From Candidatus Eiseniibacteriota bacterium (GTDB lineage: Bacteria > Eisenbacteria > RBG-16-71-46 > SZUA-252), in NCBI GenBank assembly GCA_005893305.1, contig VBOZ01000029.1, positions 169,072 to 233,071 on the forward strand: DNA of 64,000 nt, written 5' to 3'. The notes under the pieces were generated by a model, which saw only the letters and a list, made by a program, of their open reading frames with translations, was not told the origin of the DNA and made no database searches. A program made the position numbers and the translations under genes. Of this stretch, positions 37,685 to 63,355 are shown piece by piece (positions within the stretch are counted from its first letter, which is position 1; each line of letters opens with the position of its first letter).

Positions 37685-38311
37685 ATGATCCCAACCCCGC
37701 GGCAGGAATCCGGAACAGAACCCGCGGGCCCGGCGAGGGGCGGGCGGCGCGGTCCGAGCATCGGTCTGATTTTGGCCGCCGTCGCCATCTTAGGCGCGAT
37801 CACGGTGCTGGGATTCATGCTCGCGCCGTATTTCCAGCGGGAGCGGATCGAGGGTTGGGTTCGCGACGCCGGCGCGTGGGGCCCGTTCGTGCTGCTCGCC
37901 GTCCAGGCCCTGCAGATCCTGCTCGCGCCGATCCCAGGGTTCTTCGTGCCGGTGCTCGCGGGATTGTTCTACGGTCCGGTGATCGGCCCGCTCATCACCA
38001 TGGCGGGATCGGTCCTCGGCTCGGCGGCCGCCTTCTGGATCGGGCGGAGCGGCGGTCGGCCCGTCGCGGAGCGGCTCGTGGGGACGGAGGCTGTCCAGAA
38101 GGCCCAAAACCTCTTCGCCGGGAAGCGCTGGATCGCGCTCGTGCCCTTATTTCTCTTCCCGTTCTCGCCGGCCGACGCGCTCTGCTTCGTCGCGGGGATC
38201 ATCGGGATGGACGCGAAGCGATTTCTGCTCGCGGTCGCGCTGGGCCGGCTGCCGAAGGACGCGCTCGTGGCCGCCGGGACCGCCCTCGGCTGGAGCTTCC
38301 TCCGGCCCTAG
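37685..38311 (+). CDS. TVP38/TMEM64 (DedA-superfamily) membrane protein
   Basis: Contains [10 protein letters not shown]...AGLFYGP.IG...[20 protein letters not shown], the DedA/TVP38 signature. Confidence 0.8.
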
Positions 38312-39786
38312 CGGCCCTTACCTTTCGTCACGATCTTGATGGGAGTGCCGGCCTGGACCTCGGCGGTGGCGCGCATCCCATTCAGGATGGCCCCGTCTTC
38401 CACGCCGATCGCAAGCGGTCCGAAATCGGACCAGACCGTCGCGAAGGTCGCGGTGCGCTTCGCGGGCTGCACGGAGAGACGGTCCGGCGCAACGTTCAGC
38501 TTCGCCGGATCCCGGAGCGCCGCGATGCTTCGGATCGACTGGTAGATCTCGTCGTTGGCCAGGCCTGCCTTGGATTGTCCGATCACCTCCAGGAATTGCC
38601 CTGGGTGGATCCGGACGAAGCCCGCGGCGAACTCCGACTGCCCTCCTTGGCCCTGGAGGATGACGGTCCCGATCCACGCGGGGAAGTCCCGGAACTGCTC
38701 CGTCCGTCCGGTCGCGGTCGCGACCGACCCGCGGGCTCGCAGGGAATCCACGTACTCGGCGGGCGTCACCGACTGATCCTTCGTCGAGCCGAGGGTGACC
38801 TGCATCATCGCTCCCGACCCTTCATTGGCAGCCTGGAGCGCCGAAGGCAGATTCTGAGTCTTCCATCCGCTAGGAAGAATCATCTGAAACGCCAGGTCGG
38901 GATGGTAGAAGCGGTTGTCCTCGAAATAACCCGCCCGCGGATCGTCGCCGAACACCAGCCCCTCGATCCGCTTCCGGTATTCCGGGGCGCGGATGATGAG
39001 GTCGCCCTGCGTGCTCGAGACGGACGCGAGCGCGAGCTGGCGCGTGCGCACCTCGCGGTCGCCCGGGTCTGGGTGCGTCGACATGAAGCTGGGGATCGAC
39101 TGGCCCTGCCGCTCCCCGATCCGCTTCAGCGTCGCGTAGGTCGCCGGGATCTCCCGCGGGTCGTATTTCGCCTTCGTCGCATAGGCGATTCCCAGCTCAT
39201 CCGCCTGGGTCTCATGGTCGCGGCTGTACTTGAGGAAGAGGAGCCCCAGGCTTTGGGCCGCGATGCCGCCGAGCGGCCGGAACTGGGGCACGAAGATCGT
39301 GCCCGCGATCAAGCCCACCGAAGCGATCTGCTGCTGCGTCATCTGCTGCGCGGTGTGCCGCGCCGTGACGTGGCCGGTCTCGTGACCCAGCACGCCCGCC
39401 AGCTGGGCCTCCGAGTTCATGTACGCCAGGATTCCCCGCGTGATGTAGATGTAGCCGCCGGGGATCGCGAACGCGTTCACGACCGGCGAGTCGAGGAGGC
39501 GGTAATGCCACTCGAGGTCCGGCAGGTGCGAGGCCTTGCCGACGCGCTGGCCGACCCCGTCCACGTATTTGGCGAGCGAGGAGTCTCCGTAGAGGCCGTA
39601 CTCGGCGACGATCGCCGGGTCGGCGTCCTTGCCCATCTCGAGCTCTTTGTTCTGCGAGACGAAGGAGATCTGCCGCTTGCCGGTCGCGGGATTGGTGGCG
39701 CAGCCGGGGTGCGTCGTGAGGAGGACGGCGAGCAGGGCCAGCGCGAGTCCGCTGCCCCTTGTCGCGAACCGCTTTCCGTGGCTCAT
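38308..39786 (-). CDS. M48-family zinc metallopeptidase lipoprotein
   Basis: LGHETGHV HExxH motif and a lipobox LLTTHPGC. GGGAG ribosome-binding site before MSHGKRF. Confidence 0.8.
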   Translation of the reverse strand: MSHGKRFATRGSGLALALLAVLLTTHPGCATNPATGKRQISFVSQNKELEMGKDADPAIVAEYGLYGDSSLAKYVDGVGQRVGKASHLPDLEWHYRLLDSPVVNAFAIPGGYIYITRGILAYMNSEAQLAGVLGHETGHVTARHTAQQMTQQQIASVGLIAGTIFVPQFRPLGGIAAQSLGLLFLKYSRDHETQADELGIAYATKAKYDPREIPATYATLKRIGERQGQSIPSFMSTHPDPGDREVRTRQLALASVSSTQGDLIIRAPEYRKRIEGLVFGDDPRAGYFEDNRFYHPDLAFQMILPSGWKTQNLPSALQAANEGSGAMMQVTLGSTKDQSVTPAEYVDSLRARGSVATATGRTEQFRDFPAWIGTVILQGQGGQSEFAAGFVRIHPGQFLEVIGQSKAGLANDEIYQSIRSIAALRDPAKLNVAPDRLSVQPAKRTATFATVWSDFGPLAIGVEDGAILNGMRATAEVQAGTPIKIVTKGKGR

Positions 39787-39892
39787 TCGGGAGACTCCCT
39801 GTCCGTGGGAATGAATTGTGAATCCGATTATGATACACCGTTGGCTGGAATTCGCATCCCGCGAACGGCGCTTCGTCCCATCGGAGGAATGG

Positions 39893-41926
39893 ATGCCCGC
39901 CATTTCCGTGGACATCGAACAGCTTTGCGTCAACACCATCAAGTTTCTCTCGGTCGACGCCGTGGAGCGCGCGAAGTCGGGCCATCCGGGGGCGCCCATG
40001 GGCGCCGCCGACATGGCGTTCGTGCTCTGGGCCAAGTTCCTTCATTTCGATCCGTCCGACCCGGCGTGGGTCAACCGCGACCGGTTCGTCCTCTCGGCGG
40101 GCCACGCCTCGATGCTCCTCTATTCGCTCCTCCACCTCTTTGGATTTGACCTGCCCATGGAAGAGCTCCGGCGCTTCCGCCAGTGGGAATCCAGGACGCC
40201 GGGGCACCCGGAGCACGGGATCACGCCCGGCGTGGAAGCGACGACCGGCCCTCTGGGGCAGGGCTTCGGCAACGGCGTGGGCATGGCGCTGGCCCAGCGG
40301 ATGGTGCGGGCCCGGTTTCCGCGCCTCGGGCCGCTTCTCGACGGCCGGGTCTTCGGCATCGTGAGTGACGGCGATCTCATGGAGGGCGTGGCGTCGGAGG
40401 CGGCCTCGCTCGCGGGGCACTGGGGTCTTGGAAACCTCGTCTACCTCTATGACGACAATCACGTCTCGATCGAGGGACCCACGACGCTCGCGTTCAGCGA
40501 GGACGTGGGGCTTCGGTTTGAGGCGTATCGGTGGCACGTGCAGCGGATCGACGGTCAGGATCGCGGCCAGGTGGAGGTGGCCCTTCGCGCGGCGATCGCG
40601 GAGGAGGACCGCCCCTCGATCATCATAGCGAGGACCACGATCGGAAAGGGCGCGCCGACGAAGGAGGGAACCGCGAAGACGCACGGCGAGCCGCTCGGCC
40701 CCGACGAGACCAAGCGCGCCAAGGAGGCCGTGGGGTGGCCTCTCGAGCCGGCGTTCTTCGTCCCGGACGAGGCGCGCGACTATTTCAAGAAGGGCGCCGA
40801 GGAGAAGCGCCGCCATCGCGCCGCGTGGGAAGAGCGATGGGCCTCGCTCAGGGCCGAGGCGCCGGAGGAGGCGTCGCGCTGGGACGCGCTCTTCGGGCGC
40901 GCGATCCCGGACGATCTCGAGGCCCGCCTCGCGGCGGCGGTCGAGCCGGCCCTGGATCTCGCGACGCGCACCTGGTCCGGGAGAGTGATTCAGGCGGCGG
41001 CGGAGGCGGTGCCGTCCCTGGTCGGCGGATCGGCGGACCTCGCTCCCTCCACGATCACCGACATCGGGAAAGGGGGAAGCGTCGCTCCGGCGGGGCTCAA
41101 GCCCGGCGCCCCGATCGAGTTCGCCGGCCGCACCCTCCATTTCGGCGTGCGCGAGCACGGCATGGGCGCGATCGTGAACGGAATGGCGCTCCACGGCGCG
41201 TTCCTCCCGTTCGGCGCCACCTTCCTCATCTTCTCGGATTACATGCGCCCGGCGATCCGGCTCGCGGCCCTGACCGGGCTCCGGTCGATCTTCGTCTTCA
41301 CGCACGACAGCGTTTTCCTGGGCGAGGACGGCCCGACGCATCAGCCGGTCGAGCAGCTCGCGTCGCTCCGTCTCATTCCGAACATCGAGGTCTGGCGTCC
41401 CGCGGACGGCCCGGAGACGGCCGCCGCGTGGGCGTCGGCGCTCAGGCGCAGCCAGGGACCGAGCGCGCTCGCGCTCACGAGGCAGAAGCTCCATCCGCTC
41501 GCCCGCGCGGGCGGAGCCGGCCTCGAGCCGGTCCTCCGCGGCGGCTACGTGCTTCAGGAGGCGGCCGGGGCGCGCGCCCACGCGATCCTCGTCGCGTCCG
41601 GATCGGAGACCCCGCTTGCCCAGGACGCCGCCGCGATCCTCGCGAAGAGGGGAATCCCGGTCCGCGTCGTATCGATGCCCTGCGTCGAGCGGTTCCAGGG
41701 CCAGCCCGAAGCGTATCGCCGCTCCGTGTTGCCGGAAGGAGCGCGCTACGTCGTGATCGAGGCGGCACAGACCGACCTCTGGTGCGCCCTCGTGGGGTCG
41801 GAGGCGCTCCGCCTGGGGCTCAATCGTTTTGGCGCCTCCGCGCCGGGCGAGACAATCGCGGAGAAGCTCGGGTTCACGCCGGAGGCGGTGGCGCGCCGAA
41901 TCTCGCTCTGGCTCCGTCCCGAATGA
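39893..41926 (+). CDS. tkt: Transketolase
   Basis: TPP-binding GHPG and the conserved [28 protein letters not shown] region. GGAGG ribosome-binding site before MPAIS. Confidence 0.95.
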
Positions 41927-41933
41927 GCGGAGC

Positions 41934-43544
41934 GTGACCGCTCCGGAACCGCCATTGGCGCCGCGCCACCCCTGGCATCCGCGTCACACGGCAATCCTTG
42001 TCGCGATCCTTCTTCTCGGCCTCGGACACCTGACGCCGTTCCTCGGCTACCTCACCGACGACACCTTCATCCACCTTCAATTCGCGAAGAACCTGATCGG
42101 AGGGCGCGGCTTCGCCTTCAATGCCGGGGAGCCGACGTACGGATCGACGAGCCCGCTCTGGGTTCTCCTCCTGGCGGGCGTCGGCCGATTCGTGCCAGGC
42201 GCCGGTGCGACCCCGGCGGACGTCGCCCGGATGCCGGAGATCGCGTGGGTCGCGAAGGCGTGCGGGGCCGTCTTCCTCGCCCTCTCGCTCCTCCTGCTCG
42301 CGCGCTTGGGAAGGACGCTCGGGTGGCGTCCCGCGAGCGCGCTTGCCCTGCCCGCGCTCCTGGCGGCCCATGCCTGGTCCGCGCGGTGGGCGATCTCCGG
42401 CATGGAGACGCCGCTCGCCGTCTTCCTTGTCGTGCTCGCGCTGGGGGCCGTAGCACGGGCCGCGATCGAGGGAAGGGGAGGGTTCCTCGCCGGGCTTTTT
42501 CTCGGCCTGGCGACGCTGGCTCGGCCGGAGTGCTGGATCCTCGCCGCGCTCGGGGTGGGCGCGGTCGCGCTCGCGGCCGAGGAGGGGCGCGGCAAGCGGA
42601 CGCTCGCGGCGCTCGCGGGCGTCGCGGCCGGCGCCGGCCCATGGCTCGTGGACGCCTGGCTCCTGTTCCACCGGCTGCTCCCCAACACCAGCGCTGCGAA
42701 GGCGGGCGCACCGTTCGTGCCGGGCCTCATGATCTCGGCGCTCCGGGCCTCCCTCCGGATCCTGATCTCGACGGACGCGATTCCGATCGCGCTGGCCGTC
42801 GTGGCCATGGCGCTCGCGGGGCCGGGACTCCTACGCTCCCTGCCGCGGGGCCGGCGTGCGTTCTGGCTCATGGCCGGAGCGTGGCCGCTCCTCCTCGTGG
42901 CGGGGCTCGCCGCCGGCGGCGTTCAAGTGATCTCGAGATACCTCCTCCCCGCCGTTCCCTCGCTCCTCCTCCTGGGAGTCGCCTCGCTCCAATGGGCCTC
43001 CGGCCGGCTGGGGGCGCGGCGCCAGGTCCTGGCCGTCGTCCTCCTCGTCGCCCTCTACGCGGCGCCCAACGCGTACCTCACGCTGCGATATAGCGCGCCG
43101 CACGCGCGTCGCCATACGGCGGGACTCCGATCCTCGCTCGCGACGTTCGGGCTCTGGGCTCGCGGACACACGCCGCCGAAAACGGTGATCGCGACCCCCG
43201 ACATCGGCGCGTTCGGATATTACTCGGACCGGCCGGTGCTCGATCTGTTCGGCCTGGTCACGCCCGCCATGGCCCCGATCGCGGTCCGCGAGGGGTACGA
43301 CGCGATCGTCGACCGCCTCCTCTTCGAGAGGGTGGGCCGTCCGTCATACTTGATCGATCGCGCCCGTGAAGCCAACCGCCTCGCCCGGACCGACGATCCC
43401 GCCAACCCCTACGTCTTTACGGTAGCGCGCGAGATCTCCGACTTGGGGATCACGCGACCGGCTCCGTATGTCTACTCCCTCTACTCGATCCGGTGGGACG
43501 TGTATGACCGGATGCACCCCCGACTCGCCTTCCAAAACCGTTGA
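41934..43544 (+). CDS. Polytopic membrane protein, putative GT-C-fold glycosyltransferase (ArnT/PMT-like)
   Basis: About 12 transmembrane helices. A first-loop acidic motif YLTDDTFIHLQFAKNLIGGRGFAFNAGEPTYGSTSPLW is typical of GT-C enzymes. GTG start follows the tkt stop. Confidence 0.55.
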   Translation: MTAPEPPLAPRHPWHPRHTAILVAILLLGLGHLTPFLGYLTDDTFIHLQFAKNLIGGRGFAFNAGEPTYGSTSPLWVLLLAGVGRFVPGAGATPADVARMPEIAWVAKACGAVFLALSLLLLARLGRTLGWRPASALALPALLAAHAWSARWAISGMETPLAVFLVVLALGAVARAAIEGRGGFLAGLFLGLATLARPECWILAALGVGAVALAAEEGRGKRTLAALAGVAAGAGPWLVDAWLLFHRLLPNTSAAKAGAPFVPGLMISALRASLRILISTDAIPIALAVVAMALAGPGLLRSLPRGRRAFWLMAGAWPLLLVAGLAAGGVQVISRYLLPAVPSLLLLGVASLQWASGRLGARRQVLAVVLLVALYAAPNAYLTLRYSAPHARRHTAGLRSSLATFGLWARGHTPPKTVIATPDIGAFGYYSDRPVLDLFGLVTPAMAPIAVREGYDAIVDRLLFERVGRPSYLIDRAREANRLARTDDPANPYVFTVAREISDLGITRPAPYVYSLYSIRWDVYDRMHPRLAFQNR

Positions 43545-43677
43545 AATCCGGGCGCCGAAACGCTATCGTTTAGGGGTAGTAAGAGGGCCTACCTCTTGTC
43601 CTGGCGCCGCAGCTCTAACCTGATTAGATCCAGGGACTTCAATCCAAAACATTAACCTGAGCTCGAGGCGCCGCCGG

Positions 43678-46600
43678 ATGATCCGGGCAGCGCCGGTCGT
43701 CGTCGCGTCTTTCGCGGCCGTGATCGGGCTTTCGACGTCCGCCTGGGCGCTCCCGCCGCGGCCGGCGCGGCAGGCTCCCGACGCGGGCCGCGCGGCTCCG
43801 TTCGCCCCGTCGCTCCTCCCGTCCACTTCCGGCTCGCCCGTCGACTGCGTCATCGTGGCTCCCGACTCCATGGCCGACATCTACCAGCGGTTGGCCGACT
43901 ACCAGACTCGGACCGGTCGGGCCACCGTGGTCCGCGGTCTCTCGACGATCCGCGCGCTCGATCCCAGGTCGAACGATCTCGCGCAGGCGGTCCGGAGCTT
44001 CCTTCGATCCGCGTACGAGCTCTGGGGGATACGCTGGGCGATCCTGGCCGGGGATCACGAGGCGATTCCGCTCCGGGTCGTCCGGGTCCTGTCGCCCTCC
44101 CCGGAGGACATTCCGAGCGACGCGTACTACGCCGATCTCGACGGGACGTGGGACGGGAACGGGAACGGAGTCTACGGGGAAGTCGCGGACAGCCTCGACA
44201 TGGTCTCGGACATCGCGGTGGGGAGGCTGTCGGCCAACACGCGCGCCGAGGCCACCATCATGGTGAACCGCGCGCTGCGCTACGCCACCGGGGTCTCGAC
44301 GGCCTCCGTCGGCCAGAACCTTCTCCTGGCGGAGGTCCTCTTTCCCTCGGATTGGCAGCCGGGGCAGTTCATCTCGAGCGACGGCGCCCAGCAGGCGCAG
44401 ATGCTGCTCCCCCGCACGCCGGGCTGCGTCGCCTCGGACCGCTACTACGAGAACTACACCGCCTACCCTGGCTCCTTGCCCTTCACCAAGTCGAACGCGA
44501 TGAGCGCGATCGGCCAGGGCTACCACGTCGTGGCGCACTACGGTCACGGCTCCCGGTCCCAGCTTTCCTTCGGGAACGCGATCATCACCGCGCCGGAGCT
44601 CGCGTCGATCCCGACGGGGGAGTCGACCGCGCTCTGGATCGCGAACAACTGCGCGTCCGCGGCGGTCGACTTCGACTGTGTCGCGGAGCGGATGGTGCGG
44701 TCTCCGAACGGGGGAACCCTGGCGTACGTCGGTGCGACGAGGGATGCGTGGCCCGAGAACACGGCGCCGATCGCGAACGCGATTTTCGACCGGCTGTTCG
44801 GATCCTCCCCGATTCCTCTTGGGGACGCGATCGAAGGCGCGCGCGCGACGATGCTGCCGTCGGGCCGGTCCGAGACCCTTGCCCGCTGGGGCTACTTCGA
44901 GACCATCCTCCTCGGCGTCCCCTCGCTCGACATCTGGAAGTGCCCTCCCGTACCGCTCACGGTGACCCGGCCCAGCTCCGTTCCGATCGGCGCGGGCGGG
45001 TTCGCGGTGACGGTGCAGAAAAGCGGCGCCCCGGTCGAGTCGGCGCTCGTCGTCGCCTGGAAGGCGGGGGAGGACTACCGGGCGGTCTACACGAACGCTT
45101 CCGGGCAGGCGACCGTGCCGTTCCACCCCGCGTCGACCGGATCGTTTTCGCTCGCGGTGACGTCGAGAGGATGCGTTCCCTCCCTCGACTCGCTCACGGT
45201 GTCGGCTTCGGCCCCGGCGCTCTACGTCTTCCTGGGCGCGGCAGCGCGGGACGATCTGGGCGGGGACGCGGACGGAACCGTCGGCGCCGGCGAGCAGTTC
45301 GGGATCGGCGGCTCGATCCGGAACGCCGGCGGAAGCGCGGGGGCGGGGACCCTGCAGGTCACGATGCAGGCGCTCACGGCGGGAGTCGCCGTCAACGTTT
45401 CAAGCGGCGTCGCGCCGTCCCTGGCGGCCGGGGCCCAGACCGCGATTCCCTCGACCCTGAGAGCGCACGCGCTCGCCACGCCCCTGAGCGAGCGCTCCGA
45501 ACGGCTCCGCATCATCGTCGGGGACGGCGTCCGCTCCGATACCACGCAGATCGCGCTCGCCGTCGGAGCGCCCGCGCCGCTTCTCGCCGCGAATGTGTTC
45601 AGCGACGCCGGAGCGGGAGGCAACGGGAACGGCGTCCTCGATCCGGGGGAGACCGCATCGCTTGCGTACACCGTGGGAAACGACGGCGGCGCGCGCGCGC
45701 GGAGCGTGACGGTCCAGGTCTTGAACCCGGCTTCCGGGGTCACGCTCATCGACACGAACGCGACCCTGGGCGACGTGGCCGCGGGCGCCACCGCCACGAC
45801 GCCCGCGCTCCGATTCTCGGTCACCGCCGTTCCCTCAGGACGCCTCTACGACCTCAAGCTTCAAGATACGTACGGGCATTCGTGGACCTTCCCGATCGAG
45901 CGCTCGGCGCCGGGGCAGCCCGCCGCGCCGAACGTCGAAGCCTCGAGCATCAACCGGATCACGATCGGGTGGAGCCCGGTCGGGGCGACCGACCTTCTCG
46001 GGTATCGGGTCTATCGCGGTCCGAACGACGCCAGCACGCCGCAGCCGTTGATGTCGATTCCCGTGCGCCGGATTCCCAGCTACGAGGACGCGGGGCTTTT
46101 GACCTTGACCTCGTACCGCTACCAGGTGAGCGCGGTCGACTCGAGCGGCAACGAGGGGCCGCGCTCTCCCATCCTCCTCGCGAGCACGACCCCGCCGTCC
46201 CTCACCGGGTGGCCCGTCCCGATGGGACAATCGACCTCCTCGTCGGTCTGCCTCGCCGACCTGGACGGGGACCATCGGCCCGAGGTCATCGTCGGCGCGG
46301 AGTACCTCTACGTCCTGCGTCCCGACGGCACCGATTGGCTCGACGGAGATCAAAACGCGATCACGACCGGCATCTTCAGCACCGCGCTCCACTACATCCC
46401 GTCCTCTCCGACCGCCGCCGACCTCGATTTCGACGGAACTCCGGAGATCATCGCGGCGTCCTGGGACGACTCCACGGTCGGTGTGTGGAAGTCGAACGGA
46501 ACGATGATGCCCGGGTGGCCGCGGAAGGGAGCGGCGCCGTTCTGGTCGGTCCCCGCGGTCGGCGAAATCGACGGGGATCCAGGCATGGAAATCGTGGTCG

Positions 46601-47805
46601 GCTCCAACTCGTCCCGGCTCTACGCCTGGAACTCGGACGGCACCGAGGTTCTGGACGGCGACCAGAATCCGTCCACCCAAGGCGTCTACTACGTTCCGCT
46701 CGGAACCACGATCTCCTCGCCCGCGATCGCGGACATCGACAAGGACGGCGTGCGCGAGGTCGTCTTCGGGACCTCGGCGGGGCGGGTCTACGCGCTCCGC
46801 TACGGGGTCCCGCTCGCGGGATGGCCCTTTGTCGCGACGGGTCTCATGAGCTCCTCGCCGGCGATCGGGGACATCGTCCCCGGCGGCGGCCTCGAGATCG
46901 CGATGGCTTCCTCGAACGACAGCGTCTACGTCCTGACCTCATCGGGAACGCGCGCCCCAGGCTGGCCGCGCCCGCTGGAGCTGACGACCGGAAACGGCCG
47001 CACGCCGTCCCCCGCCCTGGCGCCGCTTCGAAAGCACCTCGGAGATCCCTCGCTCTGCGTGATCATCTGCGGGGCGGACGGAAAGCTGACCGCGTTCGAT
47101 CCGGCCGGGAACACGCTCCCCGGTTGGAGCTCGGTCCAGCTGGGCGCGAACGCCGCCACGGAGGCGTCGCCCGCCGTCGCCGATATCGACGGCGACGGCG
47201 CGCTCGAGGTGCTGATCGCAGCGGAGGACCGCCGCCTCTACGCCTTCCGATTCGACGGGACCCCGGTGAGCGGATTTCCGATCGAAACGGGAGCCGAGCT
47301 GCGCGGGACGCCAGCGGTTTGGGACCTGGACGGTGACGGCGCGTGCGATATCGTCGTCGCGGGCTGGGACCGAAACATTTACGCATGGCGCTATCCGGGC
47401 ACCTTCAACCAGGGCGGGATGGCGTGGCCGATGTTCCATCACGACAACTGGCGCACCGGCCTCGCGACGTTCCCGATTCTCACCGCGGTGGACACGGAGC
47501 CGGCCGCCGCGGCCCCTCCGGCCCGCCCGTCCCTCGCGCAGAATCGCCCCAACCCCTTCAATCCGGTGACGGTGATCGGCTATTCGGTCGCCGCGGCGGG
47601 ACCGGAGGAGGTCCGCCTGCGCGTCTTCACGATCGCCGGGCGCCTCGTGCGGACTCTGGTTTCGCGGCGCGTCGAACCCGGCTATCATGAGGCCCGCTGG
47701 GACGGCCGCGACGACCACGGCCTCCCGGCCGCATCGGGGGTCTATTTGTACCGGGCCGATATCGGCCGGACCGCGTTGACGCGGAAGATGACCCTGCTGC
47801 GATAG
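43678..47805 (+). CDS. Giant secreted multidomain protein: N-terminal C25 (gingipain-like) cysteine-peptidase domain, Ig-like/CARDB and FN3 domains, FG-GAP/VCBS repeats, and a C-terminal FlgD-Ig-like/T9SS-type sorting domain
   Basis: C25 hallmarks YYADLDGTWDGNGNGVYGE, HYGHGS (His) and ANNCASA (Cys). At least six FG-GAP repeats (ADLDGDHRPEVIVGA etc.). C-terminus reads NRPNPFNPVTVIGYSV...RLRVFTIAGRLVRTL...WDGRDDHGLPAASGVYLYRAD. Confidence 0.8.
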   Translation: MIRAAPVVVASFAAVIGLSTSAWALPPRPARQAPDAGRAAPFAPSLLPSTSGSPVDCVIVAPDSMADIYQRLADYQTRTGRATVVRGLSTIRALDPRSNDLAQAVRSFLRSAYELWGIRWAILAGDHEAIPLRVVRVLSPSPEDIPSDAYYADLDGTWDGNGNGVYGEVADSLDMVSDIAVGRLSANTRAEATIMVNRALRYATGVSTASVGQNLLLAEVLFPSDWQPGQFISSDGAQQAQMLLPRTPGCVASDRYYENYTAYPGSLPFTKSNAMSAIGQGYHVVAHYGHGSRSQLSFGNAIITAPELASIPTGESTALWIANNCASAAVDFDCVAERMVRSPNGGTLAYVGATRDAWPENTAPIANAIFDRLFGSSPIPLGDAIEGARATMLPSGRSETLARWGYFETILLGVPSLDIWKCPPVPLTVTRPSSVPIGAGGFAVTVQKSGAPVESALVVAWKAGEDYRAVYTNASGQATVPFHPASTGSFSLAVTSRGCVPSLDSLTVSASAPALYVFLGAAARDDLGGDADGTVGAGEQFGIGGSIRNAGGSAGAGTLQVTMQALTAGVAVNVSSGVAPSLAAGAQTAIPSTLRAHALATPLSERSERLRIIVGDGVRSDTTQIALAVGAPAPLLAANVFSDAGAGGNGNGVLDPGETASLAYTVGNDGGARARSVTVQVLNPASGVTLIDTNATLGDVAAGATATTPALRFSVTAVPSGRLYDLKLQDTYGHSWTFPIERSAPGQPAAPNVEASSINRITIGWSPVGATDLLGYRVYRGPNDASTPQPLMSIPVRRIPSYEDAGLLTLTSYRYQVSAVDSSGNEGPRSPILLASTTPPSLTGWPVPMGQSTSSSVCLADLDGDHRPEVIVGAEYLYVLRPDGTDWLDGDQNAITTGIFSTALHYIPSSPTAADLDFDGTPEIIAASWDDSTVGVWKSNGTMMPGWPRKGAAPFWSVPAVGEIDGDPGMEIVVGSNSSRLYAWNSDGTEVLDGDQNPSTQGVYYVPLGTTISSPAIADIDKDGVREVVFGTSAGRVYALRYGVPLAGWPFVATGLMSSSPAIGDIVPGGGLEIAMASSNDSVYVLTSSGTRAPGWPRPLELTTGNGRTPSPALAPLRKHLGDPSLCVIICGADGKLTAFDPAGNTLPGWSSVQLGANAATEASPAVADIDGDGALEVLIAAEDRRLYAFRFDGTPVSGFPIETGAELRGTPAVWDLDGDGACDIVVAGWDRNIYAWRYPGTFNQGGMAWPMFHHDNWRTGLATFPILTAVDTEPAAAAPPARPSLAQNRPNPFNPVTVIGYSVAAAGPEEVRLRVFTIAGRLVRTLVSRRVEPGYHEARWDGRDDHGLPAASGVYLYRADIGRTALTRKMTLLR

Positions 47806-47856: not shown

Positions 47857-49307
47857 ATGGCGGCGCCCGTGCGGGTGCGCTTCGCGCCGAGCCCATCCGG
47901 CTTCCTCCACGTCGGTGGAGCGCGCACCGCCCTTTTCAACTACCTCTTCGCGCGGCGCCACGGCGGCGCGTTCGTGCTGCGCATCGAGGACACGGACCGT
48001 GAGCGCTCGACGGACGAATCGATCGCCGCGATCTACGAAGCCCTGCGCTGGCTCGGGATGAGCTGGGACGAGGGGCCGGAGATCGGCGGATCGTTCGGAC
48101 CGTACCTCCAGAGCGAGCGCCTTCCGCGCTACGCCGAAGCGGGCAAGCGGCTGCTCGGAGATGGAAAGGCCTATCGCTGCTTCTGCGATCCGGAGGACCT
48201 GAAGCGCCGCCGCGACGAAGCCATGCGCCGGGGCGAGCCTCCGAAGTACGACCGCGCCTGCCTCAAGCTATCGCCCGAGGAGAGCGCGGCCCGCGCCGCG
48301 AAGGGGGAGCCGCACGCGATCCGATTCCGGATTCCGGATGGCGAGACGACGTGGAACGACCTCGTCCGGGGCGACGTGACGTTTCAGAACGCGGTGCTCG
48401 ACGACCTCGTGATTCTCCGGACCGACCGCCATCCGACCTACAATTTCGCCGCGGTGGTCGACGACCATGCGATGGAGATCACGCACGTGCTGCGCGGGGA
48501 CGACCACATTTCGAACACGCCCCGCCAGATTCAGATCTACCGCGCGCTCGGCCTCACGCCGCCGCAGTTTGCCCATATCCCGATGATCCTGGGCCCCGAC
48601 GGGACACGCCTCTCGAAGCGGCACGGCGCGACATCGGTGACATCCTTCCGGGACGAAGGGTTCCTTCCGGAAGCCATGGTCAATTTCCTCGCGCTCTTGG
48701 GGTGGGCCTACGACGGGGAGCGAGAGATCTTCACGATGGAGGAGCTGACGCAGTTCTTCTCGCTGGACCGCGTCTCCAAGAATCCCGCGATCTTCAACTA
48801 CGAGAAGCTGGAGTGGATGAACGGCGAGTATTTCCGCGCGCTCCCGCTCGGTCGCCGGACGGACCTCGTGATCGACCACCGTCGCGCGACCAAGGCGCTC
48901 CCGGAGTCGGCGCTCAAGGACCGCACGTTCCTCATGCGCGCCGTCGAGGCGGCCGGGGACCGGATCAAGCGGCCCCAGCACTTCATGGACTACCCGAGCC
49001 GGGTCCCTGGCAGGATCTTCAGGCGAAGCCCGGCGTCGCCGCCCGCCTGCGAAAGCTCGCCTCGACGCTCGAGCGGGTCACTCCGTTCGAGCACGATCCG
49101 CTGGAAGAGGCCACGCGCGCCGTGGCGAAGGAAGAGGGCGTGAAGGCGGGCGAGGTGATCATGCCGGCCCGGATCGCGCTGACCGGCAAGAAGGTCACGC
49201 CCGGCATCTTCGACGTCATGCTTCTTCTGGGGCGCGAGCGCACGGTGCGGCGGCTCGCCGACGCGGCCGATCGGCTGGAGGCGCCCTCCCCGGCGCCGGC
49301 CGGCTAG
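47857..49307 (+). CDS. gltX: Glutamate--tRNA ligase; reading frame interrupted by an apparent single-nucleotide frameshift near 49005-49015
   Basis: HIGH-type PSPSGFLHVGGARTA and the KMSKS-equivalent LSKRHG lie in the frame of the 47857-49143 ORF. The conserved C-terminal anticodon-binding region (...VIMPARIALTGKKVTPGIFDVMLLLGRERTVRRL) lies in the frame of the 48351-49307 ORF. The combined length is 3n+2 nt. Confidence 0.85.
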
Positions 49308-50576: not shown

Positions 50577-50669
50577 TAGGTTGTAGGATCGCTTTCAACC
50601 GAGTCCCGGGAGACACGCTCCAGGAGGCTCCATGCCGGTTCTTCCGCTTCCGTCTCCCGCGTCGCCGTC

Positions 50670-53486
50670 ATGAGGCCGGCCCTCGCCGTGCTCGCGGCCG
50701 CCGGGGTCGCGACGATCGCGATCCTCCTCCTCCTCAGACCGTCGTCCCTCCGCTCCTCGACGACCGCGACCAGCGACTACGCGAACTTCGAGGCGCTCCA
50801 GGTCCATCCGCTGGCCATAACGCCCGACCGGACCCGGCTCCTCGCCGTGAACACGCCCGATGCCCGGCTCGAGGTGCTCACGATCGGTGCCCACACCCTG
50901 AGCCGGCTCGGCGAGATCCCGGTGGGATTGGAGCCCGTTTCGGTCTCGGCGTTCAACGACAGCATCGCCTGGGTGGTCGACAACGTCTCCGATGCGGTGA
51001 GCATCGTGAATCTACGGACCTTCAGCGTGGAGAACACGCTCACGGTCGGGGACGAGCCGACCGACGTGGTCTTCGCCGGGAGTCCAAAGCGGGCCTTCGT
51101 CTGCGTCAGCGGCGAGGACGCCGTGAAGCTCTACGATCTCGTGGATCCGCTCGCGCCGACGCTCGCCGCGAACCAGACGATCCAGGGCACGCACCCGCGC
51201 GCCCTGGCCGCGTGGGGCAACGAGGTCTACGTCGGCGTGCTGGACGCCGGGAACCGGACGAGTGTCGTGAGCGCGAGCCTCGTGCGGGCCGGCGGCGGCC
51301 CGCCGCCGCCGAGCCCGCCGCGCAAGCTGACCTCCTCCGCGCCCGACGTCGCCCTCATCGTGCAGCAGGTCGGAAGCGATTGGGTGGACGAGCGCGCCGC
51401 CTCCCAGAAGACCTGGAACTCGGTCATCCCCTACACCCTGCCCGACCGCGACGTGCAGGTCCTCGACGCGAGCTCGGGGGCGCCGGTCCGAACGGTCTCC
51501 GACGTAGGCACCAACCTCTTCAACCTCGCCGTGGCGCCCGGGAGCGGAAACGTCTACGTCACGAACACCGAGGCCTTCAACCGCACGCGCTTCGAGCCGA
51601 ACTTAAGGGGACGGTTCGCGCAGAATCGGATTTCGCGGATCCGACCCGGGCAGACACTCCCGTCCGACGTCTGGCACCTGAACAGCCACATCGTCTACGA
51701 CACGATTCCGGGCCCGTCGTTCGAGAGGGACCTGAGCCTCTCCCAGCCGATCGACATCGCGGTGAACGCTGCCGAGACGCGCGTCTACGTGGCCGCGCTC
51801 GGGTCGGACAGGGTGGGGGTCTTCGATCTCTCGCAGGGAACGGTGGTGAACCGGATTCCGTCCTCGCTCGCCCCGCTGCCGAAGCGCGGGGGCCCGACCG
51901 GATTGGCGCTGGACGAGGCCAGGGCGCAGCTTTTCGTGCTCAACCGATTCGCCAACTCGGTCTCGATCGTGGACCTCGGCACGGAGAACATCGTCGGGGA
52001 GACGTTCTTTCGTTTCTATCCGACTCCCCGGGAGGTGTTCGAGGGACGGCGGTTCCTCTACGACGCGACGCTCTCGGGCCACGGCGATCTCGCCTGCTCC
52101 TCCTGTCACATCGCGAGCAACTTCGACAACATCGCCTGGGATCTCGGTGACCCGCAGGGCGATCCCATCCCGGTGCCGCCGGGGCAGTCGCCGTTCCTAC
52201 CGCCGTTCGATCCGATGAAGGGCCCGATGACGACGCAGTCGCTGCGCGGGCTGAGCGGAACGGGGAACCTGCACTGGCGGGCCGACCGTGAGAACTTCCT
52301 CGCCTTCAACCCCGCCTTCGTGAAGCTGATGGGGAATGATGCTCAGCTCTCGACCACCGACATGCAGAGGTACAACGACTTCATCATGACGGTGGTCTAC
52401 CCCCCGAACCCGAATCAGAATCTGGACCGGACGTGGCCGGACCCGGCGGCGCCAACTCCGAGTCCGACGCGCGGGAAGATCGAGTTCGACACGAACAACC
52501 ACGACGGGGGCACCTGCGCCGCGTGCCACGCCTTCCCGGCCGGCACGAACGGGACGATCATCCCGGGGCCGCTGCTTCAAGAGAGCCAGGGGATGAAGGT
52601 GCCGCAGCTGCGGAACGCGTACGCCAAGACCGGCTTTACCAACGCGGCCGGCCCCCAGAAACGGGGCTTCGGCTACATTCACGACGGCTCGATCGACAAC
52701 CTGATCACGTTTCTGCACCTCCCGGTGTTCAATTTCCAGAACGAGCAGCAGCGGCGCGACCTCGCGTCGTTCATCCTCTCGTTCGACACCGGGATGGCCC
52801 CATCGGTCGGCCGGCAGCTCACGATCAGCGCCTCGACCAAGAATCTGGCCTCAACGACGTCGCTGCTCGACTCGCTCTACCTTGAGGCCGACATCGGCAA
52901 CTGCGACCTGGTGGCGCACGGGTACATCGACGGCCAGAATCGCGGCTACCGATACACCGGCGCCCGCAAGTTCGAGAGCGATTACAACCCGGAGGGCGTC
53001 CTTGACGCCGATCTCCTCCGCGGGCTCCCCGACGCTCCCGGCGAGGCGATCACCTATCTCGGCGTGCCGCCGGGCTCGGGCGTGCGGATGGGGATCGATC
53101 GCGACCGGGACGGGTACCGCGACCGCTACGAGATCGCGCTCGGGTCCGATCCCGCCGATGCGAGCTCGGTCCCGTCGGTGAGCGCGATCACGATGCCTCC
53201 GACCGCTCCGATCGCGCGGCTGTCGCAGAACGCGCCGAATCCGTTCAATCCATCGACGGTGATCGCCTATGATGTGGCCCACGCGGGCACGGTGAAGCTC
53301 CACGTGTTCGACGCGGCCGGGCGGCTCGTGCGAACCCTCGTCGACGCCAACGTGCCCGCGGGGCGGCATACCGTGCGCTGGGACGGCGCGGATGATCAAG
53401 GCCGACCGGCCGCGAGCGGGCGCTACTACTACCGGCTCCGCGTCGGGCCGAAGGTCCTGACGAGGGACATGACCCTCATCAAGTAG
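50670..53486 (+). CDS. Secreted fusion of a YVTN-type beta-propeller, a di-haem cytochrome c peroxidase/MauG-like domain, and a C-terminal FlgD-Ig-like/T9SS-type sorting domain
   Basis: Two CxxCH motifs (CSSCH, CAACH). CCP-family motifs VPQLRN and GYIHDGS. Propeller repeats in the N-terminal ~450 aa. C-terminus reads NAPNPFNPSTVIAYDV...LHVFDAAGRLVRTL...WDGADDQGRPAASGRYYYRL. Confidence 0.8.
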   Translation: MRPALAVLAAAGVATIAILLLLRPSSLRSSTTATSDYANFEALQVHPLAITPDRTRLLAVNTPDARLEVLTIGAHTLSRLGEIPVGLEPVSVSAFNDSIAWVVDNVSDAVSIVNLRTFSVENTLTVGDEPTDVVFAGSPKRAFVCVSGEDAVKLYDLVDPLAPTLAANQTIQGTHPRALAAWGNEVYVGVLDAGNRTSVVSASLVRAGGGPPPPSPPRKLTSSAPDVALIVQQVGSDWVDERAASQKTWNSVIPYTLPDRDVQVLDASSGAPVRTVSDVGTNLFNLAVAPGSGNVYVTNTEAFNRTRFEPNLRGRFAQNRISRIRPGQTLPSDVWHLNSHIVYDTIPGPSFERDLSLSQPIDIAVNAAETRVYVAALGSDRVGVFDLSQGTVVNRIPSSLAPLPKRGGPTGLALDEARAQLFVLNRFANSVSIVDLGTENIVGETFFRFYPTPREVFEGRRFLYDATLSGHGDLACSSCHIASNFDNIAWDLGDPQGDPIPVPPGQSPFLPPFDPMKGPMTTQSLRGLSGTGNLHWRADRENFLAFNPAFVKLMGNDAQLSTTDMQRYNDFIMTVVYPPNPNQNLDRTWPDPAAPTPSPTRGKIEFDTNNHDGGTCAACHAFPAGTNGTIIPGPLLQESQGMKVPQLRNAYAKTGFTNAAGPQKRGFGYIHDGSIDNLITFLHLPVFNFQNEQQRRDLASFILSFDTGMAPSVGRQLTISASTKNLASTTSLLDSLYLEADIGNCDLVAHGYIDGQNRGYRYTGARKFESDYNPEGVLDADLLRGLPDAPGEAITYLGVPPGSGVRMGIDRDRDGYRDRYEIALGSDPADASSVPSVSAITMPPTAPIARLSQNAPNPFNPSTVIAYDVAHAGTVKLHVFDAAGRLVRTLVDANVPAGRHTVRWDGADDQGRPAASGRYYYRLRVGPKVLTRDMTLIK

Positions 53487-56290: not shown

Positions 56291-56299
56291 CGCGAAGAG

Positions 56300-56374
56300 T
56301 GGTAGCGCTACGGGGAATCGAACCCCGGTTTGATGGCTGAGAACCATCCGTCCTAACCCCTAGACGATAGCGCC
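56300..56374 (-). tRNA. tRNA-Glu (anticodon CUC)
   Basis: Cloverleaf read by hand: acceptor GGCGCTA/TAGCGCT (G1-U72), D-arm TCGTCTAGGGGTTAGGAC as in tRNA-Glu, anticodon stem GATGG/CCATC with loop TTCTCAG, T-arm CGGGG-TTCGATT-CCCCG, encoded CCA. Confidence 0.85.
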
Positions 56375-56521: not shown

Positions 56522-57178
56522 TCAACGCCGCGGGCCGCTCGAGTCAGGCGGCGCGGGATCGTGGCTCGACCGGAAATGACTGCGGAGCCAGAGGAGGAAG
56601 AGGAGGCCGAGCGCGGCGACGACGGCGAGGTCGAACCCGCGCCAGTACTCGCGAATTCGCTCCCAATGCTCGCGGAACATGACCCCGACCTGCGCGAGCA
56701 CGAGCGACCAGACCGCCGATCCCAGGAATGTGTAGAGCGAGAACCGCCAGAAGGGAACGCGCGCCGCGCCCGCGGGGAAGGAGATGAAGGTCCGCACGAT
56801 GGGAAGAAGCCGGGTCCAGAAGGCGACCTGAAGCCCGTGTCGCTTCAGCCAGCCGTCCGCTCGGTCGTACTCCTCCACCCGGATCAGGCGCCAGCGCGCG
56901 AGGCGCTCGGCGAGAGGGCGGCCGCCCTTCACCCCGAGCCAGTACGAGACCCACGATCCGAGCACGTTTCCAAAGGCGCCCGCGAGCACGACGCCCCAGA
57001 GCGTGAACCGCCCCGTGGTCACCAGGTAGCCCGAGAACGGCATGATGATCTCGCTGGGGAGGGGAATGCAGGCGCTCTCGATGGCCATGCAGAGCACGAT
57101 CCCGCCGTATCCGAGCGTCGAGATCACGGCGAGGATGAAGGCGGCGAGCGGGGCGACGATCCGATCCAGCAAATGCAC
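56522..57178 (-). CDS. DedA-family membrane protein
   Basis: DedA signature GYGGIVLCMAIESACIPLPSEIIMPFSGYL...G.W.SYWLG..GGRP. Confidence 0.85.
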   Translation of the reverse strand: MHLLDRIVAPLAAFILAVISTLGYGGIVLCMAIESACIPLPSEIIMPFSGYLVTTGRFTLWGVVLAGAFGNVLGSWVSYWLGVKGGRPLAERLARWRLIRVEEYDRADGWLKRHGLQVAFWTRLLPIVRTFISFPAGAARVPFWRFSLYTFLGSAVWSLVLAQVGVMFREHWERIREYWRGFDLAVVAALGLLFLLWLRSHFRSSHDPAPPDSSGPRR

Positions 57179-57269
57179 GCGCGAACCCTACGCGACGCGC
57201 TTCGCGGCAGACAAGCGGAAAGACTTCCGCCTTGAGGGGTTCCGCGTGCGCGTGATAGCGTCGAGGCGG

Positions 57270-61167: not shown

Positions 61168-61633
61168 CGCCGGATCGGCACTCCAGAGCTGGGCCGAGTT
61201 CCTTGCCGCCCATCATCTTCGTGTCACCGAGCCGCGCCGGCTCATCGCCCAGGCGATCGCCCAGTCGCCGGGGCACTTCGACGCGGAGACGCTTCGGCTC
61301 CGGCTGAGGGGCCAGGGGCGGCGCCTCTCCCGCGCCACGATCTACCGGACTCTCGCCCTGCTCCAGAGCTGTGGGATCCTGAGAAGGGTGCAGCTCGTGG
61401 AGGGTACGCTCCACTACGAGCTCTCCCGTCCGAACGATCCGCACCATCATCTTGTCTGCCGGCGCTGCGGCTCCGTCCAGGAGGTCACCGACGCGTCGCT
61501 GACGCGAGCGGTCCGCGAAGCGGCTCGCAGGGCGGCCTTTGCGCCGGAGGAGTTTGTCCTACGCATTCGGGGCCTCTGCTCCCGATGCCGCGGATCGCGC
61601 GCCTCAGGGGGTCGACCTGAGCCATCAACATAA
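61139..61633 (+). CDS. Fur-family metalloregulator (Fur/Zur/PerR-type)
   Basis: Fur fold with DNA-binding helix RATIYRTL, metal-site His cluster HHHLVC, and two CxxC pairs (CRRCGSV ... CSRCRG). Confidence 0.8.
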   Translation: MSLTANAPDSAGSALQSWAEFLAAHHLRVTEPRRLIAQAIAQSPGHFDAETLRLRLRGQGRRLSRATIYRTLALLQSCGILRRVQLVEGTLHYELSRPNDPHHHLVCRRCGSVQEVTDASLTRAVREAARRAAFAPEEFVLRIRGLCSRCRGSRASGGRPEPST

Positions 61634-61651
61634 CCACTTACCACAACACAA

Positions 61652-61671
61652 GTTATCCCATTATAGATAAA
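61652..61671 (+). promoter_or_regulatory. Candidate Fur-family operator: AT-rich inverted repeat GTTATC-N8-GATAAA, immediately upstream of a putative -35
   Basis: The only AT-rich palindromic site in the Fur/porin intergenic region, and it resembles Fur/Zur box half-sites (GATAAT/ATTATC). Inferred, not confirmed. Confidence 0.35.
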
Positions 61672-61678
61672 TATTCGT

Positions 61679-61708
61679 TTGACACACCCTGGGGGCGGTG
61701 CCTATGGT
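61679..61708 (+). promoter_or_regulatory. Putative sigma70-type promoter (TTGACA-N18-TATGGT) for the downstream porin-like gene
   Basis: Perfect -35 hexamer with a plausible -10; implies a ~230-nt leader. Confidence 0.4.
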
Positions 61709-63258: not shown

Positions 63259-63305
63259 AAGAAAGTCTGAATCAAGGGCCCGGCGACGGGTCCAAAAAAG
63301 CCTGG

Positions 63306-63342: not shown

Positions 63343-63355
63343 GCAACGAAAGTAG

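What the first reader, a model, noticed from the sequence alone, without database searches (positions are those of the whole stretch)
43678..47805. 1375-aa C25 (gingipain-like) cysteine peptidase fused to FG-GAP repeats, Ig-like domains and a sorting domain
The N-terminal ~400 aa carry the C25 catalytic architecture (YYADLDGTWDGNGNGVYGE, HYGHGS His, NNCASA Cys). They are followed by about 600 aa of Ig/FN3-like modules, at least six FG-GAP/VCBS repeats and the C-terminal sorting domain. C25 peptidases outside Bacteroidota are poorly characterised. A low-GC promoter-like leader with a small AAGAGG-GCCTA-CCTCTT hairpin sits upstream (43560-43677).
Basis: partly seen in the sequence, partly recalled or inferred. 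Interest (0 to 1): 0.5.

Follow-up and report, generated by a model that had tools for sequence, protein, structure and literature searches.

The report
Gingipain-like surface protease of Eisenbacteria
This gene encodes a large secreted protein whose front end is a gingipain-type cysteine protease with intact catalytic residues, followed by spacer domains, an eight-bladed propeller and a secretion tag; it is a correctly read but ordinary, uncharacterised member of a very large family already auto-annotated in databases.

The parts
43541..43569 (+). Weak sigma-70-like promoter match, TTGAAA-17-TATCGT, overlapping the stop codon of the upstream gene
   Evidence: 9 of 12 matches; 1 site found against 0.1 expected in shuffles. 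This is a consensus match only. The promoter type of this phylum is unknown.
43545..43677 (+). 133-nt intergenic leader with lower GC (56 %) than the window (67 %)
   Evidence: No Rfam family. No conserved secondary structure across 5 syntenic loci.
43581..43597 (+). Small hairpin AAGAGG-GCCTA-CCTCTT (6-bp stem, 5-nt loop); probably of no significance
   Evidence: Seen in the sequence and in the MFE fold. No T-tract or terminator call. Leader fold z = -1.4. The sequence is not conserved in L001/L005.
43665..43668 (+). GAGG, a Shine-Dalgarno-like element 9 nt upstream of the ATG
   Evidence: Read directly; inference only.
43678..43749 (+). Sec-type signal peptide, aa 1-24 (MIRAAPVVVASFAAVIGLSTSAWA | LPP)
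   Evidence: This is the only hydrophobic segment in the protein. The n/h/c regions and the AWA motif were read from the sequence. No signal-peptide predictor was available, so this is inferred.
43750..43839 (+). Pro/Ala-rich linker, aa 25-54; too short to hold a gingipain-type prodomain
   Evidence: Low conservation and low pLDDT at the start of model 1. The reading frame opens only 18 codons upstream of the ATG and the upstream gene ends at 43544, so no prodomain can be encoded.
43840..44937 (+). C25 (gingipain-like, clan CD) catalytic domain, aa 55-420
44125..44226 (+). Conserved acidic loop, aa 150-183 (YYADLDGTWDGNGNGVYGEVADSLDMVSDIAVGR); about 17 of these residues are an insertion relative to Kgp
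   Evidence: D153, D155, G156, W158, G167, E168, D171, D174 and R183 are each kept in at least 90 of 97 sequences. The gap opposite Kgp appears in the profile alignment. A Ca2+-binding role is speculation.
44545..44547 (+). Catalytic His290 (in HYGHGS), followed by invariant Gly291
   Evidence: Aligns with RgpB His211. Invariant in 97/97.
44650..44652 (+). Catalytic Cys325 (in NNCASA)
   Evidence: Aligns with RgpB Cys244 and with the catalytic Cys of Kgp. Invariant in 97/97.
44938..45207 (+). IgSF-like beta-sandwich, aa 421-510, equivalent to the IgSF domain of RgpB/Kgp
45223..45900 (+). Two beta-sandwich modules, aa 516-642 and 659-741; the second is weakly CARDB-like
   Evidence: Model 2 secondary structure with pLDDT about 90. 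Pfam CARDB E 0.059 at 654-708. Weak NCBIfam matches to the equivalent modules of myxobacterial peptidases.
45910..46173 (+). FN3 domain, aa 745-832
   Evidence: Pfam fn3 E 0.0013, below cut-off. The family profile hits FN3 domains of RPTPs and titin at E 1e-12 to 1e-8.
46174..47427 (+). Eight-bladed FG-GAP beta-propeller, aa 833-1250, with D-x-D-x-D-G type motifs in five blades and a recurring GWP motif
   Evidence: Pfam FG-GAP_3 88.3 bits, FG-GAP 42.8 bits. Eight strand groups in model 2. Foldseek matches to the 8-bladed BamB at TM 0.68-0.69 and to ITFG2. Motifs listed.
47428..47532 (+). Linker, aa 1251-1285; aa 1269-1279 are predicted disordered. Candidate site of CTD removal
   Evidence: pLDDT below 50 at model residues 850-860. 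Cleavage is inferred by analogy with T9SS cargo (PMC11285876).
47533..47805 (+). C-terminal sorting-type domain, aa 1286-1375 (QNRPNPFNP ... GRLV ... WDGRDD.G ... SGVY ... K), plus the stop codon
   Evidence: Pfam FlgD_ig 31.6 bits against cut-off 27. The same domain ends five other window ORFs. Sibling CTDs give sub-threshold Por_Secre_tail/TIGR04183 and PorU-CTD matches. Beta-sandwich in model 2.

Best explanation
The gene encodes a multidomain extracellular cysteine endopeptidase of family C25 (clan CD, gingipain-like) from a Candidatus Eisenbacteria-type bacterium.

Proposed pathway:
1. The N-terminal signal peptide takes the protein across the inner membrane by Sec (inferred).
2. The C-terminal FlgD_ig/T9SS-type beta-sandwich domain targets the folded protein to a type IX-like outer-membrane translocon. 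The domain is probably then cut off in the disordered linker by a separate PorU-like C25 sortase of the same lineage, leaving the enzyme attached to the cell surface or released (inferred by homology).
3. Outside the cell, His290 activates Cys325, which attacks the scissile peptide bond through a thioester intermediate, as in gingipains. The residues and fold are shown here; the chemistry is inferred.

The four beta-sandwich modules would act as a stalk, and the eight-bladed FG-GAP propeller as a binding module for substrate, ligand or Ca2+ (inferred). Unlike gingipains, the protein has no N-terminal prodomain, so it is not a gingipain-style zymogen. Its likely role is degradation or processing of extracellular protein, in a genome neighbourhood rich in other peptidases and CTD-tagged surface proteins.
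Against: There is no experimental evidence for activity or localisation. No T9SS machinery gene lies in the window or next to the PorU-like paralogue, and I could not scan a whole Eisenbacteria genome. The query CTD does not itself reach TIGR04183/PF18962. The missing prodomain leaves folding and latency control unexplained.
Confidence: 0.75

Rival explanations
1. The protein is the lineage's PorU-type sortase or C-terminal signal peptidase. It would remove the CTDs of the many CTD-tagged proteins and attach them to the surface, rather than act as a degradative protease.
For: PorU is itself a C25 member carrying a CTD. The query gives a sub-threshold hit to NF033707 (84.8 bits). The gene is a syntenic, well-conserved core gene in a region rich in CTD proteins. 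It lacks a prodomain, as PorU does (own knowledge).
Confidence: 0.07
2. The protein is an active C25 peptidase, but the C-terminal FlgD_ig-like domain is not a T9SS signal. Export would use another route (Sec plus an unknown outer-membrane step, vesicles or lysis), and the domain would be a structural or adhesive Ig module.
For: The query CTD matches only FlgD_ig, not TIGR04183 or PF18962. No T9SS component was found in any locus examined. No literature on T9SS in Eisenbacteria turned up.
Against: The domain always sits at the extreme C-terminus of otherwise unrelated secreted proteins (six in this window), which is the behaviour of a sorting signal. It carries the PNPF and G.Y motifs and a basic C-terminus, and sibling copies match Por_Secre_tail, TIGR04183 and the PorU CTD just below threshold. 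PorU-like proteins exist in the phylum. Eisenbacteria belong to the FCB group, where T9SS is reported (PMC11285876).
Confidence: 0.13
3. The C25 domain is a catalytically dead scaffold, and the protein works as an adhesin or binding protein through its propeller and Ig modules.
For: A large share of the protein (about 950 aa) is made of binding-type modules. There is no prodomain, and the third catalytic residue is unassigned.
Against: His290, Gly291 and Cys325 are invariant in 97/97 sequences down to 30 % identity, and the catalytic domain is among the best conserved parts of the protein. The high-confidence gingipain fold also argues against it.
Confidence: 0.03

Closest known systems
Gingipains RgpB and Kgp of Porphyromonas gingivalis (MEROPS C25; PDB 1CVR, 4IEF, 4RBM)
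   Different: Sequence identity is only 16-20 %. There is no ~200-aa N-terminal prodomain. It carries a conserved ~17-residue acidic insertion (aa ~156-172). About 740 extra residues (two beta-sandwiches, an FN3 and an 8-bladed FG-GAP propeller) lie between the IgSF domain and the CTD, where RgpA/Kgp have haemagglutinin/adhesin domains (own knowledge). The S1 specificity residue is unassigned. The host is a soil or groundwater-type FCB candidate phylum, not an oral Bacteroidota pathogen.
PorU, the T9SS sortase / C-terminal signal peptidase (NCBIfam NF033707; PDB 6ZA2)
   Same: Both belong to family C25, carry a CTD and lack a classical gingipain prodomain. The acidic loop region and the catalytic core align (NF033707 positions 475-715).
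Auto-annotated 'C25 family cysteine peptidase' proteins of Candidatus Eisenbacteria and other FCB-group MAGs (for example P0016, P0020, P0040; CP070702.1)
   Same: These share the architecture C25 + Ig/FN3 + FG-GAP + FlgD_ig at 51-99 % identity. The gene neighbourhood is the same in 4/4 contigs. The same fusion occurs at 22-38 % identity in Fibrobacteraceae, WOR-3 and Bacteroidales MAGs.
   Different: Nothing of substance: the query is one more member (P0001 is 99 % identical). The more distant members carry a 230-262-aa N-terminal extension that the query's clade lacks.
FG-GAP / integrin-alpha-type and BamB-type beta-propellers
   Same: FG-GAP repeats with D-x-D-x-D-G Ca2+-type loops. The beta-propeller fold matches BamB at TM 0.68-0.69 and ITFG2.
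   Different: The propeller has eight blades rather than the seven of integrin alpha (the integrin blade count is own knowledge). It is fused to a protease, and no ligand is known.

Membership tests
Peptidase family C25 (Pfam PF01364 / MEROPS C25, clan CD) | Profile match above the curated threshold over the whole catalytic domain | tested here: met
   172.8 bits against cut-off 23, profile positions 2-372 of 374. Family profile hits RgpB at E 3.7e-47.
Peptidase family C25 (Pfam PF01364 / MEROPS C25, clan CD) | Catalytic dyad in the order His (followed by Gly) then Cys, at the positions of RgpB His211 and Cys244 | tested here: met
   His290-Gly291 and Cys325 align with RgpB GHGS and the catalytic Cys. 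They are invariant in 97/97 sequences.
Peptidase family C25 (Pfam PF01364 / MEROPS C25, clan CD) | Caspase-like alpha/beta fold followed by an IgSF domain | tested here: met
Peptidase family C25 (Pfam PF01364 / MEROPS C25, clan CD) | Third catalytic acid (RgpB Glu152 / Kgp Asp388) and an acidic S1 specificity residue (RgpB Asp163 / Kgp Asp516) | tested here: inconclusive
   The conserved acids Glu219 (E/D in 95/97) and Asp235 (95/97) lie in the right region. The column of Kgp Asp516 is not acidic in the query.
Peptidase family C25 (Pfam PF01364 / MEROPS C25, clan CD) | Peptide-bond hydrolysis sensitive to cysteine-protease inhibitors | not testable with these tools
   Needs biochemistry.
Gingipains proper (RgpA/RgpB/Kgp-type zymogens) | N-terminal ~200-aa prodomain (Pfam PF08126) that keeps the enzyme latent | tested here: not met
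   No PF08126 hit. The catalytic domain starts at about aa 55, and the frame opens only 18 codons upstream of the ATG. All 90 close relatives have at most 89 aa before the domain.
PorU T9SS sortase (NCBIfam NF033707) | Score at or above the 420-bit equivalog cut-off, with PorU's N-terminal domains preceding the C25 core | tested here: not met
T9SS cargo with a type A C-terminal domain (TIGR04183 / PF18962) | Beta-sandwich domain of about 70-100 aa at the extreme C-terminus, shared by unrelated secreted proteins of the same genome | tested here: met
   FlgD_ig 31.6 bits against cut-off 27. Six window proteins end in the same domain. Predicted as a beta-sandwich after a disordered linker.
T9SS cargo with a type A C-terminal domain (TIGR04183 / PF18962) | Match to the TIGR04183 / PF18962 models above threshold | tested here: not met
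   The query has no hit at E <= 0.1. Sibling CTDs score just below threshold: 26.2 against 27 and 19.5 against 23.
T9SS cargo with a type A C-terminal domain (TIGR04183 / PF18962) | Presence of T9SS machinery (SprA/Sov, PorV, PorK/L/M/N, PorU) in the same genome | not testable with these tools
   None was found in the 64-kb window or beside the PorU-like paralogue. Whole-genome scans were not possible. Only a sub-threshold PorU-like protein was found in the phylum.
T9SS cargo with a type A C-terminal domain (TIGR04183 / PF18962) | N-terminal Sec signal peptide | tested here: inconclusive
   The pattern is typical (MIR, a hydrophobic core, then AWA|L), and it is the only hydrophobic segment in the protein. 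No dedicated predictor was available.
FG-GAP beta-propeller (Pfam PF13517 / PF01839) | Repeated FG-GAP units above threshold that form a closed propeller | tested here: met
   FG-GAP_3 88.3 bits against 26.9, FG-GAP 42.8 bits against 22.1. Eight blades in a model with pLDDT about 90. Propeller matches in PDB.

The most novel reading that the evidence does not exclude
In the query's Eisenbacteria clade, the loss of the prodomain, housekeeping-level conservation and fixed synteny could mean that this is not a nutritional protease. It could instead be a dedicated envelope-maturation enzyme: a second, gingipain-derived processing peptidase or transpeptidase that acts on the many CTD-tagged surface proteins. 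In that reading, the Ca2+-binding eight-bladed propeller would take over the latency or substrate-selection role that the prodomain plays in gingipains.
Probability: 0.08. Interest if true: 0.6.

Novelty: new member of a known kind. Interest (0 to 1): 0.25.

Why it matters
All biochemically characterised C25 peptidases (RgpA/B, Kgp, PorU) come from Bacteroidota (own knowledge), and none of my seven literature searches found a paper on this architecture. Yet the catalytic domain has thousands of relatives in metagenomes: 6,427 50 %-identity representatives at E <= 1e-3. This protein is a clean, confidently modelled, prodomain-less representative from an uncultured FCB phylum. It could serve as a starting point for expressing an environmental gingipain-like enzyme, for asking how C25 enzymes are kept latent without a prodomain, and for documenting T9SS-type cargo in Eisenbacteria. 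As a genome-scan finding, however, it confirms an annotation that NCBI and JGI pipelines already produce, and nothing about it contradicts expectation.

Tried and rejected
1. Upstream hairpin or leader as a regulatory element: rejected. The leader fold has z = -1.4, there is no terminator, no Rfam hit, no consensus structure across five syntenic loci, and the sequence alignment is poor.

2. A functional link through neighbouring GT-C glycosyltransferases: rejected. The PorU-like P0107 sits beside a PMT_2 gene and the query sits beside a 571-aa membrane protein, but the two membrane proteins show no similarity (blastp E 5.6). The window protein has only a weak LA_3751/LA_3752 hit.

3. Looking for PorV or other T9SS genes around the PorU-like paralogue and in the rest of the window: nothing was recognised.

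4. Residue-level alignment to PorU with a single sequence: too weak, as PorU was not reached.

5. Testing whether the 230-262-aa N-terminal extension of distant members is Propeptide_C25: only 1 of 5 gave a weak sub-threshold hit (18.4 bits against 22). The tandem paralogue in L003 has a weak precomputed hit. This remains inconclusive.

6. The search for related loci with alignment A1 failed because no stretch was conserved enough.

7. The afdb50 fold library was unavailable.

8. Fold search of the C-terminal 956 aa returned only generic Ig/FN3 arrays and propellers, with no functional clue.

9. Literature searches for Eisenbacteria plus T9SS/type IX, and for C25 plus FG-GAP, returned nothing.
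Full report

Yes. The ORF runs from an ATG at 43678 to a stop at 47805 on the + strand and encodes 1375 aa. Its GC3 is 0.88, typical of the real genes in this 67 % GC window.

Pfam gives these matches:
- Peptidase_C25 at aa 58-417: E 1.7e-50, 172.8 bits against a cut-off of 23, covering profile positions 2-372 of 374.
- FG-GAP_3, five stretches, E 5e-25.
- FG-GAP, E 4.5e-11.
- fn3 at aa 748-831, weak.
- CARDB at aa 654-708, weak.
- FlgD_ig at aa 1310-1359, above threshold.

The leader has lower GC (56.4 % against 67.4 %) and contains the stated 6-bp hairpin at 43581-43597.

**2. What is the catalytic part?**

An AlphaFold2 model of aa 40-530 was built on 47 family sequences. It is confident (mean pLDDT 89.5, pTM 0.89).
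- Foldseek against the PDB puts RgpB first (E 7e-29, TM 0.82-0.83 on the target) and Kgp next (TM 0.75). PorU follows far behind (E 1.7e-8).
- A family profile hits RgpB at E 3.7e-47, Kgp at 2.3e-37 and PorU at 4.5e-29.

In both the single-sequence and the profile alignments, the query's GHGS aligns with the RgpB segment that holds His211, and its NNC aligns with RgpB Cys244. I aligned 97 family members reaching down to 30 % identity. His290, Gly291, Cys325 and Glu337 are invariant in all of them. Glu219 is E/D in 95/97 and Asp235 is D in 95/97.

The equivalents of RgpB Glu152/Asp163 and Kgp Asp388/Asp516 could not be fixed. Substrate specificity therefore stays open.

A conserved acidic loop (aa 150-183) includes an insertion of about 17 residues relative to Kgp.

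**3. What is the rest of the protein?**

A second model covers aa 420-1375 (pLDDT 89.6). Together with the Pfam and PDB-profile hits, it gives this layout:

| Residues | Feature |
|---|---|
| 1-24 | Signal peptide |
| 25-54 | Pro/Ala-rich linker |
| 55-420 | C25 catalytic domain |
| 421-510 | IgSF domain, as in gingipains |
| 516-642 and 659-741 | Two beta-sandwich modules, the second weakly CARDB-like |
| 745-832 | FN3 domain |
| 833-1250 | Eight-bladed FG-GAP propeller |
| 1251-1285 | Linker, disordered at 1269-1279 |
| 1286-1375 | C-terminal beta-sandwich (CTD) |

The propeller has eight strand groups. Its best structural matches are the 8-bladed BamB (TM 0.68-0.69) and ITFG2. Five blades carry D-x-D-x-D-G motifs.

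**4. Is the C-terminal domain a sorting domain?**

The last ~95 aa recur at the extreme C-terminus of five other, otherwise unrelated proteins in the window (E 1e-30 to 1e-6):
- 297-2369 (-) and 2554-4788 (-): FG-GAP + PKD.
- 4870-6102 (+).
- 50580-53483 (+): propeller.
- 57030-59825 (+): LVIVD.

The six align well, with conserved PNPF(N)P, GR.V, W.G.D..G, SG.Y and a basic C-terminus. All match FlgD_ig (four of the five siblings above its cut-off). One also matches Por_Secre_tail at 26.2 bits against a cut-off of 27. Another matches the PorU CTD and TIGR04183 weakly.

This is how a T9SS type A-like sorting signal behaves. The literature says T9SS may be present in several non-Bacteroidota FCB phyla, and describes cleaved CTDs as 67-88-residue seven-stranded sandwiches (PMC11285876). 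CTD cargo has also been proposed for Fibrobacter (PMC6851124).

The machinery itself was not seen in the window. I could not scan a whole genome, so the export route is inferred rather than shown.

**5. Organism, family and context**

The closest database proteins come from Candidatus Eisenbacteria/Eiseniibacteriota MAGs. P0001 is 99 % identical. About 90 clusters share the architecture at 51-99 % identity, and several carry the NCBI name 'C25 family cysteine peptidase'.

The neighbourhood is aconitase - VTT - M48 - transketolase - multi-TM protein - C25 - gltX - GT4 glycosyltransferase - (CTD propeller protein) - M16. It is identical in 4 of 4 contigs examined, at 55-74 % identity.

Between the same genome pairs the C25 protein is about as conserved as transketolase, GT4 and M16: 74 % against 75, 72 and 73 %, and 61 % against 67, 63 and 67 %. 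It is therefore a vertically inherited core gene of this clade, not a mobile accessory gene.

The same fusion, with C25 directly upstream of the Ig modules, propeller and CTD, occurs at 22-38 % identity in another Eiseniibacteriota chromosome, in Fibrobacteraceae, WOR-3 and Bacteroidales MAGs, and in unclassified MAGs.

An exhaustive HMMER search with the catalytic domain alone finds 6,427 50 %-identity representatives at E <= 1e-3 and 402 at E <= 1e-30.

**6. What differs from gingipains?**

The clearest difference is the lack of an N-terminal prodomain.
- The catalytic domain begins about 30 residues after the signal peptide.
- The reading frame opens only 18 codons upstream of the ATG, and the preceding gene ends at 43544.
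- There is no Propeptide_C25 hit.

All 90 close relatives have at most 89 residues before the domain. The seven distant members (30-37 % identity) carry 230-262 extra residues. Most of the nearest 50 %-identity representatives also start their catalytic domain at residue ~230-260.

Whether that extension is a true C25 propeptide is only weakly supported: 1 of 5 tested scored 18.4 bits against a cut-off of 22, and a tandem paralogue has a weak hit. The query's clade looks like a prodomain-less branch, and that state is in the minority but not unique.

**7. Protease or sortase?**

PorU is the other characterised C25 member, so I tested that reading.
- The query scores 84.8 bits on the PorU model against a cut-off of 420, and only over the catalytic core.
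- It has no match to the PorU2 model.
- It is structurally far closer to RgpB/Kgp than to PorU.
- Eisenbacteria encode a different ~1430-aa C25 protein (P0106/P0107). It scores 190-204 bits on the PorU model, including PorU's N-terminal domains.

That paralogue is the better sortase candidate, so the query is best read as cargo.

**8. The upstream leader**

Beyond its lower GC and one weak sigma-70-like match (TTGAAA-17-TATCGT at 43541-43569), nothing supports a specific element.
- The fold is not unusual (z = -1.4).
- No terminator-like site was found.
- No Rfam family matches.
- Five syntenic leaders share no consensus structure.

By my own estimate, a perfect 6-bp hairpin is expected about 0.2 times by chance in 133 nt.

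**9. Verdict**

The feature is a gingipain-like C25 cysteine peptidase with an intact, invariant His/Cys dyad. It is fused to beta-sandwich modules, an eight-bladed FG-GAP propeller and a T9SS-type CTD. It most likely works as a Sec- and T9SS-exported surface or secreted endopeptidase.

It is one member of a large family that is already auto-annotated but has never been characterised experimentally. The missing prodomain and the housekeeping-like conservation are the only mildly unusual traits. Novelty: new member of a known kind. Interest: 0.25.

Noticed in passing
window 47857-49307 (+), break near 48993-48999: The glutamyl-tRNA synthetase gene (gltX) immediately downstream is split by a frameshift. 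Residues 1-381 of the 493-aa orthologue match one frame and residues 390-493 match another. For an essential gene this is probably an assembly or sequencing indel.
   Followed up: partly
window 297-2369 (-), 2554-4788 (-), 4870-6102 (+), 50580-53483 (+), 57030-59825 (+): Five further proteins end in the same FlgD_ig/T9SS-like CTD. They include a tandem pair of FG-GAP + PKD + CTD paralogues, a propeller protein with a CCP_MauG-like haem-motif hit, and an LVIVD-repeat protein. With six in 64 kb, the density of CTD cargo is high.
   Followed up: partly
P0106 / P0107; L006 10001-14293: Eisenbacteria encode a separate ~1430-aa C25 protein that matches the PorU sortase model at 190-204 bits (cut-off 420), including PorU's N-terminal domains. 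This makes it a candidate divergent PorU. No PorV-like neighbour was recognised. Its neighbours are a PMT_2 glycosyltransferase, rotamases and a HEAT/cyclophilin protein.
   Followed up: partly
L003 5091-9842 and 10001-15367 (also L004): A distant lineage has two tandem C25 + FG-GAP + CTD paralogues (1583 and 1788 aa). The first has a weak Propeptide_C25 hit. gltX again lies about 1.7 kb downstream, so the linkage to gltX persists at about 33 % identity.
   Followed up: no
window 41829-43544 (+): A conserved 571-aa multi-TM protein lies directly upstream of the C25 gene in all syntenic contigs. It has no Pfam family and only a weak hit to the LA_3751/LA_3752 putative glycosyltransferase family (35.6 bits against cut-off 200). 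Its function is unknown.
   Followed up: partly
window 59641-61164 (+): A GWxTD-domain protein (Pfam PF20094, E 2e-16) follows the LVIVD-CTD protein, and its open frame overlaps the end of that ORF. The role of GWxTD proteins is uncharacterised.
   Followed up: no
window 16117-20500, 38311-40041, 53507-56359: The window is rich in other peptidases: M61 glycyl aminopeptidase, M3 oligopeptidase, M48 and a double M16. This fits a proteolytic lifestyle.
   Followed up: no
window 61000-64000: GC falls to about 0.62 from about 0.68-0.71. The 448-aa ORF at 61912-63255 has no Pfam family, and the window ends in a CarboxypepD_reg-domain protein. This may be a compositionally distinct segment.
   Followed up: no
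window 6139-9917: This stretch holds ORFs with no Pfam family (6139-6909, 6913-7998, 8046-9002, 9021-9917, all on the - strand). They lie upstream of a Bac_transf sugar transferase at 9904-10746. It may be an uncharacterised polysaccharide or envelope locus.
   Followed up: no
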